A stretch of 64,000 bases of DNA from Bacteroidota bacterium (GCA_048498055.1 JBEHYS010000014.1:10624-74623); one strand, 5' to 3'; shown: positions 5,168 through 24,086, counted from the stretch's first letter. Notes: generated by a model from the sequence alone, not told the origin. Program-made: numbers and translations.

Positions 5168-6266
5168 CTATTCGTCATTTTTTTGCCCCATCATCATCAG
5201 GTAAGCTTTGAGGAATTCGTCGATTTCGCCGTTCATCACGCCGTCGACGTCGCTCGTTTCATAGCCGGTGCGGACGTCTTTCACGAGTTTGTACGGATGC
5301 ATGACGTAATTCCGTATTTGCGAACCCCATTCGATTTTCATCTTTCCCGCTTCGATGTCGGCGCGCTGCTCGAGACGTTTTTTGAGCTCGATCTCATACA
5401 ATTGCGATTTGAGCATCTGCATCGCACGCTGGCGGTTGTCGTGCTGCGAACGTGTTTCGGAACATTGGATCTGGATTCCGGTCGGCTTGTGCAAAAGCTG
5501 GACTTTGGTTTCGACCTTGTTGACGTTCTGCCCGCCGGCGCCGCTTGATCGCGCGGTCGTGATCTCAATGTCGGCCGGATTGATCTCGATTTCGATCGTG
5601 TCGTCGACCAGCGGATAAACGTACACTGAAACGAACGAAGTATGTCGCTTTGCGTTGCTGTCAAAAGGCGAGATGCGAACCAGCCGGTGCACGCCGTTTT
5701 CGCCTTTGAGATATCCGAATGCAAAATCGCCCTCGATTTCGAGCGTCACGGTCTTGATCCCGGCCACGTCGCCTTCCTGGAAATTGAGTTCCTTGACTTT
5801 GTAGCCTTGTTTTTCGGCATACATCAGATACATCCGCATCAGCATCGAAGCCCAGTCGCAGCTTTCGGTTCCGCCGGCGCCGGCCGTGATCTGCAGGACT
5901 GCGCTGAGCGTGTCGCCTTCGTCCGAAAGCATGTTGCGGAATTCGAGGTTTTCGACCTGATGGCTTGTAATGGAGTATTGCTCGTCGAGTTCTTCAACCG
6001 ACAAGTCGCCTTCTTTGTAAAAGTCGTAGGCCAACTGGAGTTCTTCAGCCATATCGACCGCTTTTTGGTAGTCGTCGACCCATTTTTTTTTGGTTCTCAG
6101 GTTCTTGACGATCGCTTCGGCTTCCCGGGCGTTGTCCCAAAATCCGGGCGCGAAGGTTTTTTCTTCCTCGTTGGTAATCTCTATCTGCTTGGCATCGATG
6201 TCAAAGATACCTCCTCAGCGCACCAAGGCGCTCTACAATACCTTTGATCTGTTCGGTATTTGTCAT
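5168..6266 (-). CDS. prfB: Peptide chain release factor 2, expressed through a programmed +1 frameshift (about 365 aa)
   Basis: ATG at 6266 gives 21 codons ([21 protein letters not shown]) ending at CTT-TGA-C (6206-6200). The +1 frame continues DIDAKQIE into the 5168-6052 ORF, which contains SPF and GGQ. Confidence 0.97.
6200..6215 (-). promoter_or_regulatory. prfB frameshift cassette: AGGAGG-TAT-CTT-TGA-C
   Basis: An internal SD-like AGGAGG (6215-6210) lies 3 nt before the slippery CTT TGA C, the canonical RF2 autoregulatory site. Confidence 0.95.
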
Positions 6267-17095: not shown

Positions 17096-18604
17096 ATGGA
17101 TAATACCCATTATATAAGTACCGATGTCCTTTCTCTGGAAACGCTGAAGGAAATCATCGACCACCAGAAAAAAATCGGGCTTTCGGAAGAAGCCAAGATC
17201 AACATCCAGAAATGTCGCGAATACCTCGACCTGAAAATGGCTTCGCAGGACGATGCGATTTACGGGATCAATACCGGTTTCGGATCTTTATACAACATCA
17301 AAATATCTTCAGAAAATCTTTCAAAACTTCAGGAAAACCTTGTGATGTCGCACGCGTGCGGTACCGGCGACGAAGTTCCTTCCGAAATCGTAAAAATCAT
17401 GCTCCTGCTCAAAATCCAGTCGTTGAGCTATGGCAACTCGGGCGTGCAGCTGGCAACGGTCGAAAGGCTTATCGATTTTTACAACAACGATATTCTTCCG
17501 GTCGTTTATACCCAGGGTTCGCTGGGCGCTTCGGGCGATCTTGCGCCGTTGGCCCATTTGTCTTTACCGCTGCTCGGTATGGGCGAAGTCAATTTTGAGG
17601 GAAAAAAGACTGAAGCCTCTAAAATCCTGTCGAGATTCGGTTGGCAGCCAATAATATTGCAATCGAAAGAAGGTCTGGCGTTGCTCAACGGCACACAGTT
17701 CATGAGCGCTTACGGGATTTTCATTCTGATTAAAGCAGCCAAATATTCGTATCTGGCCGATCTGATCGGAACGATTTCGCTGGAAGGTTTCGATGGCAGG
17801 AAAGAACCGTTCAATGAACTCATTCATTTGATCCGTCCGCACAAAGGCCAGATCGTGACCTCGAGGCGCGTGCTCGACTTCCTAGACGATAGCCAGATAA
17901 TTTCGCAGCCGAAAAAACACGTCCAGGATCCGTATTCGTTCCGTTGCATCCCGCAGGTTCACGGCGCGTCGAAGGATGCGATCGATTATGTAAAGAAAGT
18001 ATTCAAGACCGAAGTCAATTCGGTGACCGATAATCCGAATATTTTTATCGATGCCGACCAAATCATTTCAGGCGGCAATTTTCACGGACAACCGCTGGCG
18101 CTGGCGCTGGATTTCATCGCAATAGCCCTGGCTGAACTGGGGAGTATTTCCGAAAGGCGTACTTATCAGCTGATTTCGGGATTGCGCGGATTACCTGCGT
18201 TTTTAGTCGAGAATCCGGGCCTGAATTCCGGATTCATGATTCCGCAGTATACGGCTGCTAGCATTGCCAGCCAGAACAAGCAACTCGCAACGCCAGCCAG
18301 CGCCGACAGCATCGTTTCGAGCAACGGGCAGGAAGACCACGTGAGCATGGGCGCAAATGCCGCGACCAAAGCGCTACAGGTCGTGAACAATCTGGAGCGC
18401 ATCCTGGCCATTGAGATGATGAACGCTTCACAGGCAATCGAATTCCGCAGGCCGCTAAAATCGGGCCCGTTTATCGAAGCGTTCCTCAAATCCTACCGCG
18501 AGGAAGTTCCGCCGGTGAAAGAAGACCGGATATTGCATTACGATATCGAGAAGACGATCCGTTTTCTCGGCAATCTGCAGATTGACGAAGAACTGCTCGG
18601 GTAA
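17096..18604 (+). CDS. hutH: Histidine ammonia-lyase
   Basis: YGINTGFG, the MIO-forming GASGDLAPLAH, QDPYSFRC and GGNFHG. Confidence 0.96.
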   Translation: MDNTHYISTDVLSLETLKEIIDHQKKIGLSEEAKINIQKCREYLDLKMASQDDAIYGINTGFGSLYNIKISSENLSKLQENLVMSHACGTGDEVPSEIVKIMLLLKIQSLSYGNSGVQLATVERLIDFYNNDILPVVYTQGSLGASGDLAPLAHLSLPLLGMGEVNFEGKKTEASKILSRFGWQPIILQSKEGLALLNGTQFMSAYGIFILIKAAKYSYLADLIGTISLEGFDGRKEPFNELIHLIRPHKGQIVTSRRVLDFLDDSQIISQPKKHVQDPYSFRCIPQVHGASKDAIDYVKKVFKTEVNSVTDNPNIFIDADQIISGGNFHGQPLALALDFIAIALAELGSISERRTYQLISGLRGLPAFLVENPGLNSGFMIPQYTAASIASQNKQLATPASADSIVSSNGQEDHVSMGANAATKALQVVNNLERILAIEMMNASQAIEFRRPLKSGPFIEAFLKSYREEVPPVKEDRILHYDIEKTIRFLGNLQIDEELLG

Positions 18605-18714
18605 ATCCAGATAAACTGGACAGGATCACAAACCAGTCAGGGTAAACATCAAAAAAATAAATCGGCGTGCCTATCTTTTAACGTGATAAAGTTGACTTCG
18701 TACGAATAGTTTTG

Positions 18715-18722
18715 TAAATTTG
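18715..18722 (+). promoter_or_regulatory. -7 box TAAATTTG upstream of small protein A (related TAAATTTA at 19047-19054 upstream of protein B)
   Basis: Consensus match 32 nt before the ATG at 18755; both small genes have GTAAATTT upstream. Confidence 0.55.
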
Positions 18723-18754
18723 ATAGCTGAACATCAATCATTTAGCAAATATTT

Positions 18755-18988
18755 ATGGAAACACACTTTAACGGGCTGCCGGACCAGGAAGGTTTGGGCA
18801 ACCTGCCGGATGCCAATCACATCCTGGCGCAGGAAAACAATCCGCTTGAATCGGTGCCGCAGCAGGAAGACGTAGCGCCCAGGGAAAGACACCGTCATCA
18901 CGAAGATCATCACGTGAACCGTAAATACCGGATGTTTTCCAATCATTCCTCAGCCGGCGACCAGCCACATACCAGTACAAGTTTTTAG
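18755..18988 (+). CDS. Small hydrophilic protein A (77 aa), paralog of 19072-19332
   Basis: ATG start, own promoter box, and a C-terminal motif NRKYRMFSNHSSAGDQPHTST shared with the next ORF. Confidence 0.7.
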   Translation: METHFNGLPDQEGLGNLPDANHILAQENNPLESVPQQEDVAPRERHRHHEDHHVNRKYRMFSNHSSAGDQPHTSTSF

Positions 18989-19071
18989 GAATTTAACAGT
19001 ATGCCAATCTTTCGCCAAAACGATTTTATTCTGTTGTCATTTTCCGTAAATTTAGGAGAACTTAAAAACAG

Positions 19072-19332
19072 ATGATCATGGAAAAAGATAAAAATGACCT
19101 GCGGAATCGGGAAGATTCGCAGCGTTGGCCCGACAGTGATGCGGCCGAACGGCATGCCGCCTCAGAAGCGGAAGAAGCACACGGAATCAATAAGGATGTT
19201 TCCGGAAATGACCTGACCGAGGAAAACCGCGACGAGACGCGTCATCATCAGGCATTCGGGAATCGGCACTACGAAGGTTTTAAAAACCATTCTTCCGCCG
19301 ACGACCAGCCGACGACCGATACCGGCGCGTAA
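19072..19332 (+). CDS. Small hydrophilic protein B (84-86 aa), paralog of 18755-18988
   Basis: A-rich initiation region; C-terminal NRHYEGFKNHSSADDQPTTDT. Confidence 0.7.
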   Translation: MIMEKDKNDLRNREDSQRWPDSDAAERHAASEAEEAHGINKDVSGNDLTEENRDETRHHQAFGNRHYEGFKNHSSADDQPTTDTGA

Positions 19333-19390
19333 CAAAAACGTTTCGAACAATAATCCAAATTCAGTCGACAAGGCAGGATTTGGATTTTTT

Positions 19391-19992
19391 TTATTGGATA
19401 ATGGTGCGGAAAGTCAGGTTGATTCTTGGTGTTTTGACTTTGGTGGATTTTGGGATAGCGTGCAGCCAATGCGCTTGTGTCGCGCCTTTCATGACCAAAA
19501 GACTGCCGTGTTCCAATAAAACGGAAACCGTTTCCTTCGTGATTTTATGCTTGAATGAAAATTTCCGCGGGGCGCCAAAACTCAATGAGGCGATGATGGG
19601 ATTTTCTCCCAATTCAGGTTCGTCGTCGCTGTGCCAGGACATTCCTTCGTTGCCGTTGTGGTAGAAATTGAGAAGGCACGAATTGAACGAATGTCCGGTA
19701 AGTTTTTCAACACTATTCTTGATTTCGAGCAATTCCGGTGTCCAGGGCAGTGCGGTTTTGGTCGTGTTCGAATAGCTGTACTCGAAAGCCGCGTCGCCGT
19801 ACCAGGCAGTTTTCCGTTTCGTGATGTAGCGTTTGCCGTACACGACTATTTCATCGGATTTCCAAAGAACCCGGTTCGCCAATTTTTCAAAGTAATCGTC
19901 TGCTTCCGCGTGGCTGAAAACCGGCCCGAAATAATTGGCGATGCCGTCTTGCAGTAATATATTTCTAAAGAATTGGCTGGAAAAAGGCTCAT
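19391..19992 (-). pseudogene. alkB: AlkB-like 2OG-Fe(II) dioxygenase with a 1-nt frameshift in a homopolymer right after the start
   Basis: HSD, H and RINLTFR motifs. ATG 19992, 3 nt after the upstream stop, is out of frame. One extra T in the T5 run (A5 at 19981-19985 on the + strand) gives MSLFSSQFFRNILLQDG and a 200-aa protein. Confidence 0.75.
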
Positions 19993-19995
19993 GAC

Positions 19996-21189
19996 TTATT
20001 CGGATTTTTTCGGCATCAAAAGGAAAATATTGCCCCGAACCTTGACAAGGTCATATCTGGTTTCGGAATATTTATATCCGGAATCCTCATCGTGGCTGTG
20101 ATAGGTTTCCCCGCTGTAAAAATCTCCTTTTTCGTCGCGTTGCAACCCGAAAAACTTCCACGGTTCCAGCGTATCAGGAGCTTTCGAATAGCTTTCAATT
20201 TGGTTGACTCTATAGGCATGCAGGTTTTTCAGGTCGATCGAGTAGAGGTAGCCTTGCGAATGTCCGTAAGTGTGATCGGAGTTTATATAAACGAAATCGC
20301 CGCCGTTTTTGCTGAAGGCAACCGCGTCCGAAACATACATGTCTGCAATTTGGATAGTCGCCAAATCGGTTCTCTTTCCGTTTTTTTTCGCGAAAATCCG
20401 GACATCTTCCGACATCGTGCTGCTGCAATTCAGGCAGTCATAAAATAGTTCGACGCCTTTCAAAATCCCTATCGGATTGTTGAGACTGTTGACCTGTTGA
20501 GCGCCATCGTCGGGATCGGGAGTCTTTTTTATCATTTTATCCGGTTTTGCGCCAACAGCAAATCCGGCGCTGGTTTTATTGATCAGCATCGGGGTTTCGA
20601 CGATGTAATTGATCGCGCCATTCAGCGAATCTTTGCTGACGGTGTAAATGAGCTTGATAACCGGCTGGGCTTTTGTCCGATTGACGGTAAACCGCAGCGG
20701 CAATTCCTTTAAACCGGTCGTGTCGACGCGTTTTTTTATATAGTTCCTGAAAATATCCATATCGAGTTCCGCGACATTTTTTTCGATGGATTTTGTCGCA
20801 GGATTGATATGAAGCAAGTGTTGGCTGTTGAAATACTCGGGTCGTTCGGAAAAGTTACCGCCCCAATACAGGAAATAATCATTTCCGTACCGGAAAGGAA
20901 CCATCATCCTGATTTGATAGGCATCATTGAAATAAGTGAGTAGCGTATCGCCGGTCTTGGCTGTCACGACAAGCAGTCCGTGATCGATCGTCTTTCTTTC
21001 TTTCTGCCGCCATATTCTGGCGTTACAGTCAAAAGCATATAACGTATCGGCTTGATCGAGCCCATAAGCAGACCTGATGGCGCTGACATTGAAAAGTTCG
21101 CGCTCGTCGGTTTGTTTCGAAGGTACCTGTTTGCATGAAACGTAAATTAAAGCCAATGCAAATAAGGCAAGGAAAGATTTTCTGGACAT
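19996..21189 (-). CDS. Hypothetical lipoprotein (397 aa)
   Basis: Signal peptide with lipobox YVSC; no family recognised. Confidence 0.75.
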   Translation of the reverse strand: MSRKSFLALFALALIYVSCKQVPSKQTDERELFNVSAIRSAYGLDQADTLYAFDCNARIWRQKERKTIDHGLLVVTAKTGDTLLTYFNDAYQIRMMVPFRYGNDYFLYWGGNFSERPEYFNSQHLLHINPATKSIEKNVAELDMDIFRNYIKKRVDTTGLKELPLRFTVNRTKAQPVIKLIYTVSKDSLNGAINYIVETPMLINKTSAGFAVGAKPDKMIKKTPDPDDGAQQVNSLNNPIGILKGVELFYDCLNCSSTMSEDVRIFAKKNGKRTDLATIQIADMYVSDAVAFSKNGGDFVYINSDHTYGHSQGYLYSIDLKNLHAYRVNQIESYSKAPDTLEPWKFFGLQRDEKGDFYSGETYHSHDEDSGYKYSETRYDLVKVRGNIFLLMPKKSE

Positions 21190-21271: not shown

Positions 21272-23818
21272 TTAAGTAGTAGGCTCTTCTGATTTCTGTA
21301 CGGTAACCGTCAGTTCCTGCGACGTATCGTCGGGAAGGTCCATGTAGATTTCGTCCCCGACATTGATTTTCGAGATGATGATTTCCTCCGCCAACGCGTC
21401 TTCGACATATTTCTGGATCGCCCGTTTGAGCGGTCTTGCCCCGAATTGCTTGTCAAAGCCTTTGTCGGCGATGAATGCTTTGGCTTTGTCTGACAGGGAA
21501 AGCTTGTAACCCAGTTCGGCAACGCGGGCATAAAGTTTTTTCAATTCGATATCGATAATCAGGTCGATGTGTTCTTTCTCGAGCGGATTGAAGACGATAA
21601 CGTCGTCAATTCGGTTCAGGAATTCCGGCGCAAATGCTTTCTTGAGCGCATTTTCGATGATGCTTTTCGCATTCTCATCGGCATTGGCAGTCCTTGCGGA
21701 TGTCCCGAAACCGACGCCTTGTCCGAAATCTTTCAACTGACGCGCACCGACGTTTGACGTCATGATGATGATCGTATTCTTGAAATCGATTTTACGGCCG
21801 AGGCTATCGGTCAGGAAGCCGTCGTCGAGAACCTGAAGCATCATGTTGAAGACGTCCGGATGCGCTTTCTCGATTTCATCGAGCAGTACGACGGCGTAAG
21901 GTTTCCTCCGGACTTTTTCGGTGAGCTGTCCGCCTTCTTCATAGCCGACGTATCCCGGAGGCGCGCCGACCAATCTCGAAATCGCGAATTTCTCCATGTA
22001 TTCGCTCATGTCGATACGGATCAAGGCATCTTCAGAATCGAATAATTCCTTTGCAAGCACTTTGGCCAATTGCGTTTTCCCTACACCGGTCTGTCCGAGG
22101 AAAATGAACGAGCCGATCGGGCGGTTCGGATCTTTCAATCCGGCGCGGTTCCGTTGGATCGAACGTGCGATTTTCATTACCGCTTCGTTTTGTCCGATGA
22201 CTTTATTTTCAATAAGTTCCGGAAGTTTAGCTAATTTATTGCTTTCGGTTTGCGCAACTCGGTTCACCGGTATTCCGGACATCATCGAAACAACGTCTGC
22301 AACATTGTCTTCGGTCACTAAAATCCGGTTGCTTTTGGAATCTTCTTCCCATTGTTCCTGGGCCAGCGCCAAGTCTTTTTCGATACGTTTTTCATCGTCG
22401 CGCAATTTGGCCGCTTCTTCGTATTTCTGTTTTTTGACCACCGTATTTTTTAGCTCGCGAACTTCTTCGAGCTGGCGTTCCAGATCGAGGATTTGTTTCG
22501 GAACGTCAATATTGGTGATGTGCACGCGGGAGCCGGCTTCATCCAAAGCATCGATTGCCTTGTCCGGAAGGAAACGGTCGCTCATGTAACGATTGGTGAG
22601 TTTTACGCAGGCTTCGATCGCTTCCGGCGAATAGGTCACGTTATGATGGTCTTCGTATTTGTTTTTGATGTTGTTCAGGATCGTGATGGTTTCCTCGACC
22701 GAGGTCGGCTCAACGATCACTTTCTGGAAACGCCTTTCGAGCGCGCCGTCCTTTTCGATGTATTGGCGGTATTCGTCGAGCGTGGTCGCACCGATACATT
22801 GGATTTCGCCACGCGCCAACGCCGGCTTGAACATATTGGAAGCGTCAAGCGAACCGGTTGCGCCGCCCGCGCCTACAATCGTATGGATTTCGTCAATGAA
22901 CAAAATGATGTCGTCGTTTTTCTCAAGCTCGTTCATTACGGCTTTCATCCGCTCTTCGAATTGCCCGCGGTATTTGGTTCCGGCGACCAAGCTGGCAAGG
23001 TCCAAAGTGACGACGCGTTTGTTGAACAGGATGCGGGATACTTTCTTCTGGATGATTCGCAACGCCAAACCTTCGGCGATGGCTGATTTTCCGACGCCTG
23101 GTTCGCCAATCAAAAGCGGATTGTTTTTCTTGCGTCGGCTCAAAATCTGGGAAACCCTTTCGATTTCCTTTTCACGGCCGACTACCGGATCGAGTTTGCC
23201 TTCTTCGGCCATTTCGGTCAGGTCGCGACCGAAATTGTCGAGTACCGGAGTTTTCGATTTTTTGTTTGACTTATTGGCGGGATTGTTGAAGCTGCTTTCC
23301 TTAAGACTGTCATCTTGTCCTGAATCTTCGTTGAATGATTCGTTTTTCGGCAGGTTTTCCATGAATTCTTCTTCGTTCGGGCTCATATTTAAATATTGTT
23401 CTTTGGCTGTGTCGTAATCGATTTTGAGTTTATTCAACAGCTTGGTTGTGGGATCGTTTTCGTTTCGCAGGATGCACAGCAGCAAATGGGCCGTGCTGAT
23501 GGAATTGCTCTGGAAAACCTTTGCTTCCAGAAAAGTGGTTTTCAGCGCCCGCTCGGCCTGACGCGTCAGGTGCAGGTTTTTCTTTTCGTTGCTGATATCG
23601 ATGTTGGGATTGGCCGGGCTTAAGATCTCGACTTTCCTGCGCAAATGGTCAAGATCGACCGACAGGTTGTTGAGTATGTTGATGGCCTTGCCGTTCCCGT
23701 CTCTTAATATACCTAACATGAGATGCTCAGTACCGATGAAGTCGTGGCCAAGGCGCAGGGCTTCCTCTTTACTGTAGGTAATCACATCTTTGACTCTGGG
23801 GGAAAAATTATCGTCCAT
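21272..23818 (-). CDS. clpC: ATP-dependent Clp protease ATP-binding subunit ClpC
   Basis: Clp-N repeats, two Walker A motifs (GEPGVGKS, GQTGVGKT), a UVR-like segment and FGARPL; start at ATG 23818 (MDDNFS). Confidence 0.96.
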   Translation of the reverse strand: MDDNFSPRVKDVITYSKEEALRLGHDFIGTEHLMLGILRDGNGKAINILNNLSVDLDHLRRKVEILSPANPNIDISNEKKNLHLTRQAERALKTTFLEAKVFQSNSISTAHLLLCILRNENDPTTKLLNKLKIDYDTAKEQYLNMSPNEEEFMENLPKNESFNEDSGQDDSLKESSFNNPANKSNKKSKTPVLDNFGRDLTEMAEEGKLDPVVGREKEIERVSQILSRRKKNNPLLIGEPGVGKSAIAEGLALRIIQKKVSRILFNKRVVTLDLASLVAGTKYRGQFEERMKAVMNELEKNDDIILFIDEIHTIVGAGGATGSLDASNMFKPALARGEIQCIGATTLDEYRQYIEKDGALERRFQKVIVEPTSVEETITILNNIKNKYEDHHNVTYSPEAIEACVKLTNRYMSDRFLPDKAIDALDEAGSRVHITNIDVPKQILDLERQLEEVRELKNTVVKKQKYEEAAKLRDDEKRIEKDLALAQEQWEEDSKSNRILVTEDNVADVVSMMSGIPVNRVAQTESNKLAKLPELIENKVIGQNEAVMKIARSIQRNRAGLKDPNRPIGSFIFLGQTGVGKTQLAKVLAKELFDSEDALIRIDMSEYMEKFAISRLVGAPPGYVGYEEGGQLTEKVRRKPYAVVLLDEIEKAHPDVFNMMLQVLDDGFLTDSLGRKIDFKNTIIIMTSNVGARQLKDFGQGVGFGTSARTANADENAKSIIENALKKAFAPEFLNRIDDVIVFNPLEKEHIDLIIDIELKKLYARVAELGYKLSLSDKAKAFIADKGFDKQFGARPLKRAIQKYVEDALAEEIIISKINVGDEIYMDLPDDTSQELTVTVQKSEEPTT

Positions 23819-24086
23819 AACTTGAGTAGGATTGTATTGTAAATTTAGTAATTTTTTTCGCGGGTTTGGCAAAAACCATACCCTAAGAACTACTGTCAGC
23901 TAAGTGACAAAAAAATACCATCGATTCACATCGGCCCGGAATTAATTTATCAACCGAAATTTGCCGCTATTTTGTTAATAAATACTGGCAAATTTCCATA
24001 TCCTTATATACGAAAAACAACGCGGAAAGGTTATATTAGCAGGATTTTTTTAACCAGTATAATTTTTTAAAAACTGACTATTACTT

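What the first reader, a model, noticed from the sequence alone, without database searches (positions are those of the whole stretch)
18755..19332. Tandem pair of small proteins with divergent acidic leaders and a shared C-terminal core (precursor-peptide-like)
Seen: protein A ends RERHRHHEDHHVNRKYRMFSNHSSAGDQPHTSTSF and protein B ends RDETRHHQAFGNRHYEGFKNHSSADDQPTTDTGA. The consensus is R-x3-RHH-x4-5-NRxYxxFxNHSSAxDQPxTxT. The N-terminal 40-50 aa are unalignable, acidic and disordered-looking. The shared residues often use different synonymous codons (AAT CAT TCC TCA GCC versus AAC CAT TCT TCC GCC), which points to selection on the peptide. Each gene has a GTAAATTT promoter-like box. There is no signal peptide and no Cys, and the core does not match microviridin TxKYPSD. 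Inference: a new short-motif family, which could be RiPP-like precursors modified in trans, His-rich metal-binding or stress hydrophilins, or peptide inhibitors docking on a partner protein. No modifying enzyme is adjacent; the neighbours are hutH and an AlkB-like oxygenase.
Basis: partly seen in the sequence, partly recalled or inferred. Interest (0 to 1): 0.75.

Follow-up and report, generated by a model that had tools for sequence, protein, structure and literature searches.

The report
Unannotated disordered small-protein pair, Flavobacterium
Two neighbouring genes in a Flavobacterium-like genome encode real, transcribed, structure-less small proteins that share an almost invariant C-terminal motif; they form a rare, unnamed family of unknown function that does not look like a modified-peptide precursor.

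Summary

- **Family:** a profile search of 1.84 billion representatives found 48 hits at E<=1e-3, 46 of them stand-alone family proteins of 64-111 aa. About 20 Flavobacterium or Bacteroidota genomes carry it. Nothing matches in Pfam, NCBIfam, PADLOC, PHROGs, PDB or Rfam.
- **Selection:** invariant residues use all synonymous codons, so selection acts on the peptide.
- **Subtypes:** A-type and B-type recur as a tandem pair in at least 10 lineages.
- **Structure:** AlphaFold2 gives no fold (pLDDT 58).
- **Transcription:** each gene has its own Bacteroidota -7 promoter box. B-type genes also carry an 18-nt box (TGCYAAT-NTT-NCGCYAAA). In a metagenome scan, 8 of 9 matches to this architecture preceded B-type genes.
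- **Expression:** a metatranscriptome holds contigs covering only the pair within 12 kb of the F. longum locus.
- **Neighbours:** 23 loci show no conserved peptide-maturation genes.

Best reading: regulated, disordered cytoplasmic proteins whose C-terminal linear motif binds a cellular partner. The RiPP precursor idea is disfavoured. Function remains unknown, and interest is moderate.

The parts
18692..18697 (+). TTGACT, a -33/-35-like element of the gene A promoter
   Evidence: Consensus scan. It lies 17 nt upstream of the hexamer TAAATT and 21 nt from the end of its TTG to the -7 box.
18715..18722 (+). TAAATTTG, an exact match to the Bacteroidota sigma-A -7 box TAnnTTTG; promoter of gene A
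   Evidence: Sequence; consensus from PMC9723704. The box is conserved as cGTAA[AC]TTTG in A-type orthologs. The predicted 5' UTR is about 28 nt.
18755..18988 (+). Gene A: 77-aa A-type family member (acidic disordered N-terminus; core R43-T75 at 18881-18979)
   Evidence: AF2 pLDDT 57.9 with no secondary structure.
19002..19019 (+). TGCCAATCTTTCGCCAAA: family-specific 18-nt upstream box (direct repeat GCYAAW with an 11-bp period), a putative regulator-binding site for gene B
   Evidence: Conserved in the B-type upstream alignment A3. It occurs only once in the window, and 3-mismatch hits are at chance level. It is exact in 6 other loci. Together with the -7 box it matched 9 metagenome stretches, 8 of them directly upstream of B-type genes. 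No consensus RNA structure.
19047..19054 (+). TAAATTTA, the -7 box of the gene B promoter (7 of 8 to TAnnTTTG), preceded by CG
   Evidence: The TAAnTT columns are invariant or nearly so across 20 B-type promoters.
19078..19332 (+). Gene B: 84-aa B-type family member (an alternative in-frame ATG at 19072 gives 86 aa; core R51-T82 at 19228-19323; second motif NKDVSGND)
   Evidence: AF2 pLDDT 58.2, pTM 0.19.
19352..19393 (+). Hairpin (stem AAUCCAAAU/AUUUGGAUU) followed by a U8 run: probable intrinsic terminator of B, facing the convergent AlkB-like gene
   Evidence: RNA fold MFE -15.9 kcal/mol, z -3.6, 0 of 200 shuffles as stable. Hairpin plus T-run terminators also follow B in L004, L013 and L015.

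Best explanation
A and B are two anciently duplicated paralogs of a lineage-restricted family of small (64-111 aa), Cys-poor, very hydrophilic, acidic, intrinsically disordered cytoplasmic proteins.

The functional unit is the C-terminal module of about 30 residues. It consists of a basic, His-containing stretch ([RK]x[RK]HH..H[GH]-N-R-K-Y) followed by the nearly invariant N-H-S-S-A-x-D-Q-P-x-T-x-T. I infer that this is a short linear motif that becomes ordered only when it docks on a conserved intracellular partner, which could be a protein or nucleic-acid complex. The His and Asp residues may contribute a metal contact. The fast-evolving acidic N-terminal part would act as a solubilising, spacing or auto-inhibitory tail.

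Each gene has its own promoter. A has a consensus housekeeping-type -7 box. B has a -7 box plus an 18-nt direct-repeat box specific to the family, which implies a dedicated regulator and conditional expression, most plausibly under stress or in stationary phase. The proteins are not processed into a peptide natural product.

Shown here: coding status and peptide-level selection, family limits, predicted disorder, promoter architecture, transcription, and the absence of clustered maturation genes. Inferred: partner docking, conditional regulation, and the stress role.
For: - **Real, constrained proteins:** there are 24 B-type and 3 A-type clusters at 90% identity. A profile search found 48 hits among 1.84e9 representatives, 46 of them stand-alone family proteins of 64-111 aa. 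Invariant Y, N, S, S, P and T positions are encoded by 2 to 6 different synonymous codons across 32 genes.
- **Conservation confined to a linear motif:** B orthologs are 50-80% identical and A orthologs about 55-58%. In the same loci the ClpC-like protein is 92-98% identical and the hutH-like protein 77-89%. The core is nearly invariant across 105 unique sequences.
- **Disorder:** AF2 mean pLDDT is 58.2 and 57.9, pTM 0.19 and 0.12, and the motif is modelled as coil. GRAVY is -1.34 and -1.79 (family mean -1.71), pI is about 5, and no hydrophobic run exceeds 5 residues.
- **Tandem A and B subtypes:** they recur in the window, L001, L004, L006, L008, L013, L015, L017, L024/L025, L027 and L041.
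- **Separate transcription units:** each gene has its own -7 box. Terminators lie between the genes in L004, L013 and L015, and one follows B in the window.
- **Family-specific box:** the 18-nt box is conserved, and 8 of 9 metagenome matches to the box plus -7 architecture precede B-type genes.
- **Expression:** in metatranscriptome X12, three contigs at 95-99% identity cover only positions 5759-6237 of the 12-kb F. longum locus. That span runs from the 3' part of A through the intergenic region and most of B. Only fragmentary 90-95% matches fall on conserved genes elsewhere in the locus.
- **Neighbours outside the usual position:** where the family sits outside the hutH...ClpC interval, its neighbours are stress-flavoured. 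They include a general-stress-protein-26-like Pyrid_ox_like protein, DUF6526, an AhpD-like CMD protein, and TetR and Crp-type regulators.
Against: - No partner has been identified, and no co-evolving neighbour was found.
- The usual position between hutH and ClpC is probably just inherited synteny.
- Conditional regulation is inferred only from a conserved DNA box. Neither the regulator nor the signal is known.
- The expression evidence comes from one metatranscriptome, kept as assembled contigs, and from a relative rather than the window organism. No RNA run was found for the window itself.
- The residues invariant across the whole family (Y, N, S-S, P, T-x-T) are also typical sites of post-translational modification, so modification in trans is not excluded.
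- A low AF2 confidence with a 26-sequence alignment does not prove disorder.
Confidence: 0.45

Rival explanations
1. Generic hydrophilin or metal-buffering proteins. On this view the proteins act in bulk during desiccation, osmotic or metal stress, either as protective disordered polymers or as His-rich Zn/Ni/Cu buffers, and have no specific macromolecular partner.
For: - The proteins are extremely hydrophilic (family mean GRAVY -1.71), and Gly is about 6%.
- A has 11.7% His, concentrated in HRHHEDHH, and the RHH pair is nearly invariant.
- The carriers come from soil and rhizosphere samples.
- Expression appears high relative to neighbours.
- Some loci have stress-type neighbours.
Against: - Bulk protectants and metal buffers normally conserve composition rather than an exact 13-residue sequence.
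- The residues invariant across the family (Y, N, S, S, P, T, T) are not metal ligands. The His of NHSS is replaced by Y, R or Q in several members, and the RHH pair degrades to RFH, KFH or RYQ.
- Gly content is at or below the hydrophilin threshold (5.2% in A, 6.0% in B, family mean 5.8%).
Confidence: 0.25
2. RiPP or graspetide-like precursors matured in trans. On this view the conserved C-terminal core (Ser/Thr/Tyr plus Asp) is cross-linked or otherwise modified by an enzyme encoded elsewhere, or by the RimK-like ATP-grasp that lies nearby in some genomes, and is then released as a peptide or cofactor.
For: - The core is rich in hydroxyl and carboxyl side chains (Y, S, S, D, D, T, D, T), the chemistry used for omega-ester links (PMC8939145).
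- Tandem divergent paralogous precursors are known among graspetides (PMC8939145, cluster 342).
- A RimB-like/RimK ATP-grasp lies one or two genes away in 9 of 23 loci.
- A subset of B-types carries P-Y-[IVL]-G-[AV], which loosely resembles the Phhx(1,2)h leader motif.
Against: - No maturation, peptidase or export gene is conserved across the 23 loci.
- The ATP-grasp is the RimK/S6-modification type (RimK, Rimk_N and RimB-like domains). It is on the opposite strand, missing from 14 of 23 loci, and has no homolog in the 64-kb window.
- The Phhx(1,2)h motif occurs in 3 of 72 proteins and GG in 3 of 72.
- A-types have a single acidic residue in the core.
- The N-terminal 'leaders' differ between A and B although the cores are the same.
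- At 64-111 aa, highly acidic and strongly expressed, the proteins are atypical for precursors.
Confidence: 0.07
3. Spurious ORFs. On this view the conserved element is really a non-coding RNA or DNA feature.
For: The ORFs are short and match no database family.
Against: - The synonymous-codon pattern at invariant residues shows selection on the amino-acid sequence.
- The reading frames and lengths are conserved in more than 100 unique sequences.
- There is no Rfam hit and no consensus RNA structure upstream of B.
Confidence: 0.01

Closest known systems
Bacterial hydrophilins and small stress-induced disordered proteins (LEA/dehydrin-like, KGG-repeat GsiB/YciG-type general stress proteins)
   Same: Small, cytoplasmic, extremely hydrophilic, predicted disordered, Cys-free, expressed from their own promoters, and apparently highly transcribed.
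   Different: - There is no sequence relationship: no Pfam or NCBIfam hit at E<=10.
- There are no repeats.
- Conservation sits in one exact C-terminal linear motif rather than in overall composition.
- Gly content is borderline.
- Induction by water deficit has not been tested.
Graspetide / microviridin precursors (ATP-grasp-modified RiPPs)
   Same: Short proteins with a C-terminal core rich in Ser/Thr and Asp. They occur as tandem divergent paralogs and are found in Bacteroidota.
   Different: - There is no cognate graspetide-type ATP-grasp.
- There is no conserved hydrophobic leader motif (PFFARFL or Phhx(1,2)h).
- There is no TxKYPSD core.
- There are no peptidase or export genes (PMC8939145).
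His-rich metal-binding proteins (Hpn-like, and the His-rich tails of metallochaperones)
   Same: A has 11.7% His in an HRHHEDHH cluster. The proteins are acidic, have no Cys and appear disordered.
   Different: - His content is far below that of Hpn-type proteins.
- B has only 7.1% His.
- The residues invariant across the family are Y, N, S, S, P and T rather than His.
- No metal-homeostasis genes lie nearby.
Disordered proteins that act through a conserved terminal docking motif (for example the SSB C-terminal tail, anti-adaptors, and small ribosome- or protease-binding factors)
   Same: The architecture matches: a variable disordered body with one invariant terminal linear motif. The sequence evolves much faster outside the motif than in neighbouring genes.
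   Different: The motif has no sequence similarity to any of these, and no partner is known. This is an analogy of mechanism only, drawn from general knowledge and not tested here.

Membership tests
Any curated protein family (Pfam-A 2025, NCBIfam 20.0, PADLOC 2.0, PHROGs v4, PDB sequences) | A significant profile or sequence match | tested here: not met
   There were no hits at E<=10 in Pfam, NCBIfam or PADLOC, none at E<=1 in PHROGs, and none at E<=10 in the PDB using the family profile.
Graspetide / microviridin-type RiPP precursor | Encoded next to, or conserved with, a graspetide-type ATP-grasp macrocyclase | tested here: not met
   In the 23 loci the only ATP-grasp is a RimB-like/RimK fusion. 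It occurs in 9 of 23, on the opposite strand, and no homolog was found in the 64-kb window. An enzyme encoded elsewhere in the genome cannot be excluded.
Graspetide / microviridin-type RiPP precursor | A conserved leader recognition motif (PFFARFL or Phhx(1,2)h) in the N-terminal region, found in about half of known precursors (PMC8939145) | tested here: not met
   The regex matches 3 of 72 family proteins, and neither A nor B of the window matches. A GG motif occurs in 3 of 72.
Graspetide / microviridin-type RiPP precursor | A core containing Thr/Ser (or Lys) and Asp/Glu positioned to form rings; for microviridin, TxKYPSD | tested here: inconclusive
   S, S, T, T and D, D are present in B-types, but A-types keep only one acidic residue in the core. 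There is no TxKYPSD.
RiPP precursors in general | Clustered maturase (radical SAM, YcaO, LanM-like, etc.), leader peptidase or exporter | tested here: not met
   The neighbours are hutH-like, AlkB, ClpC, gyrA, polyamine genes, DUF421, rhomboid and similar genes.
Hydrophilins (criteria recalled from Garay-Arroyo et al. 2000: hydrophilicity index >1 and Gly >6%) | Mean hydrophilicity >1 | tested here: met
   GRAVY is -1.34 for A and -1.79 for B. The family mean is -1.71.
Hydrophilins | Gly content >6% | tested here: inconclusive
   A has 5.2%, B has 6.0%, and the family mean is 5.8%. These values are at or just below the threshold.
Hydrophilins | Accumulation under water deficit | not testable with these tools
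   The only expression evidence is one metatranscriptome of unknown condition.
Bacteroidota sigma-A promoters | A -7 box TAnnTTTG about 20-30 nt upstream of the start codon, with a TTG-type -33 element | tested here: met
   A has TAAATTTG (exact) with TTGACT upstream. B has TAAATTTA (7 of 8). Both are conserved across orthologs (consensus from PMC9723704). Transcription start sites were not mapped.

The most novel reading that the evidence does not exclude
The invariant Y...N-H-S-S-A-D-D-Q-P-x-T-x-T module could be the substrate of chemistry encoded elsewhere in the genome, for example ester or amide cross-links made by the RimK-like ATP-grasp seen nearby in some genomes, or formation of a peptide-derived cofactor. 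That would define a RiPP-like or protein-derived product whose maturase is not clustered with its two differently regulated precursors.

A second reading, equally not excluded, is that the motif is a lineage-specific docking signal that controls a core machine such as the neighbouring ClpC-type unfoldase or the ribosome.
Probability: 0.08. Interest if true: 0.8.

Novelty: new variant of a known kind. Interest (0 to 1): 0.4.

Why it matters
If the docking-motif reading is right, this family gives a compact way to find a conserved regulatory target in Flavobacterium. The motif is a 13-residue invariant sequence on a disordered carrier, and it comes with a family-specific promoter box that should lead to its regulator. 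The family is missing from every curated protein library searched, yet it appears to be among the better-transcribed genes of its locus in an environmental sample. It is therefore a clean example of the unannotated small proteins that standard annotation labels only as 'hypothetical'.

Its narrow distribution limits its general importance. It was found in about 20 of 185,579 species-representative genomes and about 46 clusters at 50% identity. The species titles of the genome hits include none of the commonly studied Flavobacterium species.

Tried and rejected
- **Protein libraries:** Pfam, NCBIfam, PADLOC and PHROGs scans gave no hits.
- **PDB:** a sequence search with the family profile gave no hits.
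- **Rfam:** nothing on 18400-19600 at E<=1, and the B upstream alignment has no consensus RNA structure. An RNA element is rejected.
- **Structure:** AF2 on both proteins gave low confidence. I did not run a fold search because matches to such models would be meaningless.
- **RNA for the window:** no runs were found. The DNA runs listed are only rhizosphere, soil or unlabelled samples.
- **RNA for other loci:** For L018, only unrelated runs from the same study were listed.
- **Regulon search with the 18-nt box:** the window has a single exact site and chance-level near-matches. The metagenome scan returned 8 B-type promoters and 1 chance hit inside a coding region, L043. No additional regulon member was found.
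- **Shared operator with ClpC:** rejected. The ClpC promoter has TTTGCCAAA as its -33 element, at a different spacing.
- **Functional link to hutH, AlkB or RimK:** rejected as unsupported. Adjacency follows backbone synteny and is lost in L012, L016, L021 and L026.
- **Literature:** searches for a described Flavobacterium family of this kind found nothing relevant.

Full report
**1. What is in the sequence**

BLASTP of A against B aligns 33 residues with 18 identities and one gap (E 8e-8 for the single comparison). Over the 21-codon core, 14 residues are identical. Seven of these are spelled with different synonymous codons, and nucleotide identity is only 39/63. This is an old duplication held together by selection on the peptide. 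All homologs of B start with 'ME', and the called gene is 84 aa, so B most likely starts at 19078. Neither protein has Cys, and no family member has a hydrophobic run longer than 5 residues.

**2. A real but rare family**

- B has 24 homolog clusters at 90% identity that align over about 98% of its length. A has three, including its own.
- A profile of 26 sequences, scored against 1.84 billion representatives at 50% identity, found 48 proteins at E<=1e-3. Two weak outliers (P0071 and P0074, 250 and 842 aa) look spurious. The other 46 are stand-alone proteins of 64-111 aa and never appear fused to another domain.
- A scan of one genome per species (185,579 species) for the peptide NHSSA[DG]D[QS]P gave 21 loci. 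All are Flavobacterium species (F. longum, F. selenitireducens, F. agri, F. noncentrifugens, F. silvaticum), Flavobacteriaceae or Flavobacteriales MAGs, or Bacteroidetes MAGs.
- The window organism belongs to this group. Its ClpC-like protein is 96.6% identical and its hutH-like protein 86% identical to those of F. longum, and the window is 48% G+C.
- No curated library knows the family: Pfam, NCBIfam, PADLOC, PHROGs and PDB sequences all gave nothing. Literature searches found nothing either.

**3. Selection acts on the peptide**

In 32 genes taken from independent loci, the invariant residues of the core are encoded by every available synonymous codon. Each Ser of S-S uses four TCN codons, Pro uses four, Arg uses six, and Tyr, Asn, His, Asp and Gln use both of theirs. 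There is no Rfam match. The ORFs are therefore coding. The family-wide consensus from 105 unique sequences is [RK]x[RK]HH..H[GHS]-[NIV]-[RG]-[RK]-Y-[ERK]-[SM]-[FYH]-x-N-[HY]-S-S-[AY]-x-D-[QSM]-P-x-T-x-T, followed by a short variable tail (GA, SF, GW, GPGxx, DTTP and others). The Y, N, S-S, P and T-x-T positions are essentially invariant.

**4. Two subtypes, usually in tandem**

- B-types carry a second conserved motif, [DN]KDVSGND, and end in ...DQPxTDTGA or ...TNTGPGxx.
- A-types lack that motif. They have a denser His/Arg/Lys stretch (HRHHEDHHVNRKY) and a conserved N-terminal NG[LM]P[DN]xE[DE]LG, and they end in ...PHTNTSF or ...TGW.
- A+B pairs occur in the window, L001-3, L006, L008, L027-32 and L041, in the order A then B. 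They occur in L004, L013, L015 and L017 in the order B then A-like. In L024 and L025 the two genes are about 1.5 kb apart. The other loci show only a B-type within the DNA retrieved.
Each has its own moderately conserved N-terminal region.

**5. Physical character**

- AlphaFold2, run with the family alignment, gives mean pLDDT 58.2 and pTM 0.19 for B, with two weak helices at residues 24-36 and 50-62 and the motif as coil. For A it gives pLDDT 57.9 and pTM 0.12, with no secondary structure.
- GRAVY is -1.34 for A and -1.79 for B (family mean -1.71). The mean pI is 5.35. Gly is 5.2% and 6.0%. His is 11.7% and 7.1%.
- Outside the motif, the small proteins evolve much faster than their neighbours. 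B orthologs are 50-80% identical and A orthologs about 55-58%, against 92-98% for ClpC and 77-89% for the hutH-like protein in the same loci.
- This is the usual signature of a disordered protein that works through a short linear motif.

**6. Transcription signals**

- **Gene A.** TAAATTTG (18715-18722) is an exact match to the Bacteroidota sigma-A -7 consensus TAnnTTTG (PMC9723704). TTGACT lies upstream at 18692. The box and part of the 5' UTR are conserved in A orthologs.
- **Gene B.** TAAATTTA (19047-19054) is preceded 27 nt upstream by TGCCAATCTTTCGCCAAA (19002-19019). This is a direct repeat of GCYAAW with an 11-bp period. Together with the -7 box, it forms the most conserved part of the intergenic region across 20 B-type promoters.
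- **Specificity of the box.** It occurs only once in the 64-kb window, and near-matches are at chance level. It is exact in six other loci. A metagenome-wide scan for the box plus the -7 element at the observed spacing returned nine stretches. Eight lie directly upstream of B-type genes. The ninth is inside a coding region of a high-GC organism, and about one such hit is expected by chance.
- **DNA, not RNA.** The region has no consensus RNA structure, so it is a DNA-level element. I interpret it as the binding site of a dedicated regulator (inference). No further regulon members could be found with the data available.
- **Terminators.** Hairpin plus T-run terminators separate B from the A-like gene in L004, L013 and L015. 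In the window, a hairpin with MFE -15.9 kcal/mol (z -3.6) and a U8 run follows B at 19352-19393.

**7. Expression**

No RNA run holds the window sequence. For the F. longum pair (L008), one rRNA-depleted metatranscriptome (X12) holds a third of the sampled words. When laid on the 12-kb locus, contigs at 95-99% identity cover only positions 5759-6237. One 404-nt contig runs from inside A, across the intergenic region, into B. The hutH-like and AlkB genes have essentially no coverage. Only fragmentary 90-95% matches, probably from other organisms, fall on the conserved ClpC and gyrA genes.

With the caveats the tool states (contigs rather than reads, and possible DNA carry-over), this shows the pair is transcribed. 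It also suggests the pair is more abundant than its neighbours, and that at least some transcripts read through from A into B.

**8. Genomic context**

Clustering the neighbours of 23 non-redundant loci gives these counts: hutH-like 16/23, ClpC-like 15/23, RimB-like/RimK fusion 9/23, DUF421 8/23, AlkB 6/23 plus the window, and agmatine deiminase plus N-carbamoylputrescine amidase 6/23. The family usually sits in a variable slot of a conserved backbone: thrABC, AhpC/thioredoxin, hutH-like, [small genes], variable genes, ClpC, gyrA. This adjacency is best explained by vertical inheritance.

In four loci the family lies elsewhere, next to these genes:
- a Pyrid_ox_like (general stress protein 26-type) protein and DUF6526, in L016 and L026;
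- a TetR regulator and an MFS transporter, in L016;
- an S51 peptidase, Asparaginase_2, an AhpD-like CMD protein and a cNMP-binding regulator, in L012;
- fumarase and a YkuD transpeptidase, in L021.

No locus has a radical SAM, YcaO, lanthipeptide-type enzyme, graspetide-type ATP-grasp, leader peptidase or peptide exporter. tblastn with the RimK-like protein finds no homolog in the window.

**9. Interpretation**

*Best-supported reading (confidence about 0.45).* These are regulated, disordered cytoplasmic proteins whose C-terminal module is a docking motif for a conserved cellular partner. The acidic N-terminal parts act as variable tails. Two paralogs deliver the same motif under different promoter control. 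The docking step, the regulator and the stress connection are inferences.

*Bulk hydrophilin or metal buffer (about 0.25).* This explains the composition and the His cluster of A. It does not explain the exact conservation of residues that are not metal ligands, nor the loss of His at several positions.

*RiPP or graspetide reading (about 0.07).* It fails the tests that could be run:
- there is no cognate enzyme;
- the leader motif is absent, with Phhx(1,2)h in 3 of 72 proteins (PMC8939145);
- there is no TxKYPSD;
- A-type cores contain a single acidic residue.

It survives only in the form 'modified in trans'.

*Spurious ORFs.* This is excluded by the codon evidence.

**10. Novelty and score**

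The family is new to the curated resources and to the searchable literature. What can be shown is a new, narrowly distributed family of the broad kind 'small disordered hydrophilic bacterial proteins'. It has three unusual features: an invariant C-terminal motif, paired paralogs, and its own promoter box. I rate it as a new variant of a known kind and give it moderate interest (0.4). It is real, conserved and expressed, but its function is unknown, its distribution is small, and nothing yet points to unprecedented biology.

Noticed in passing
window 19391-20050 (minus strand): The AlkB-like 2OG-Fe(II) oxygenase aligns to the F. longum homolog (residues 14-204) in a single frame up to 19969. 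That frame has no ATG, GTG or TTG between the upstream stop (about 20050) and the TTG at 19882. The conserved N-terminal ~30-40 residues therefore lack a canonical start. This could be an unusual start codon, a sequencing error or a decaying gene.
   Followed up: partly
window 19996-21189 (minus strand): A 397-aa ORF with no Pfam match has a lipoprotein-like N-terminus (MSRKSFLALFALALIYVSC). It occupies a variable slot between AlkB and ClpC. Relatives have a rhomboid gene (L001) or two unannotated genes (L027) in this slot.
   Followed up: partly
window 17096-18604 (+): The hutH-like Lyase_aromatic gene stands alone, without hutU or hutI next to it. Upstream are an NAD(P)HX dehydratase and GcvT. 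It is the most constant neighbour of the small-protein family (16 of 23 loci). I did not check whether it is a true histidine ammonia-lyase or another MIO enzyme.
   Followed up: no
L004 8748-10636; also L009, L010, L013-L015, L017, L018, L020: In one Flavobacterium clade, a DUF421 gene and a 458-aa RimB-like/Rimk_N/RimK fusion (ribosomal protein S6 modification type) lie between the small genes and ClpC, on the opposite strand.
   Followed up: partly
L024 4077-6144, L025 3284-5354, L012 3037-6150: In L024 and L025, the A and B genes are separated by an Asparaginase_2 (isoaspartyl peptidase-type) gene and AlkB. L012 has an S51 peptidase plus Asparaginase_2 upstream of its B gene. The core contains invariant Asn residues, so a link to Asn or isoAsp chemistry is conceivable but untested.
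   Followed up: no
L008 5759-6162 (metatranscriptome run X12): A single 404-nt RNA-derived contig spans from inside gene A, through the intergenic region that contains the 18-nt box, into gene B. This suggests read-through A-B transcripts in addition to B's own promoter.
   Followed up: partly
window 23840-23875 (minus strand): The ClpC-like gene has a textbook Bacteroidota promoter: TTTGCCAAA as the -33 element, then TAAATTTA (23847-23840) about 20 nt upstream of its ATG at 23818. The GCCAAA here is at a different spacing from the box of gene B, so it is not a shared operator.
   Followed up: yes
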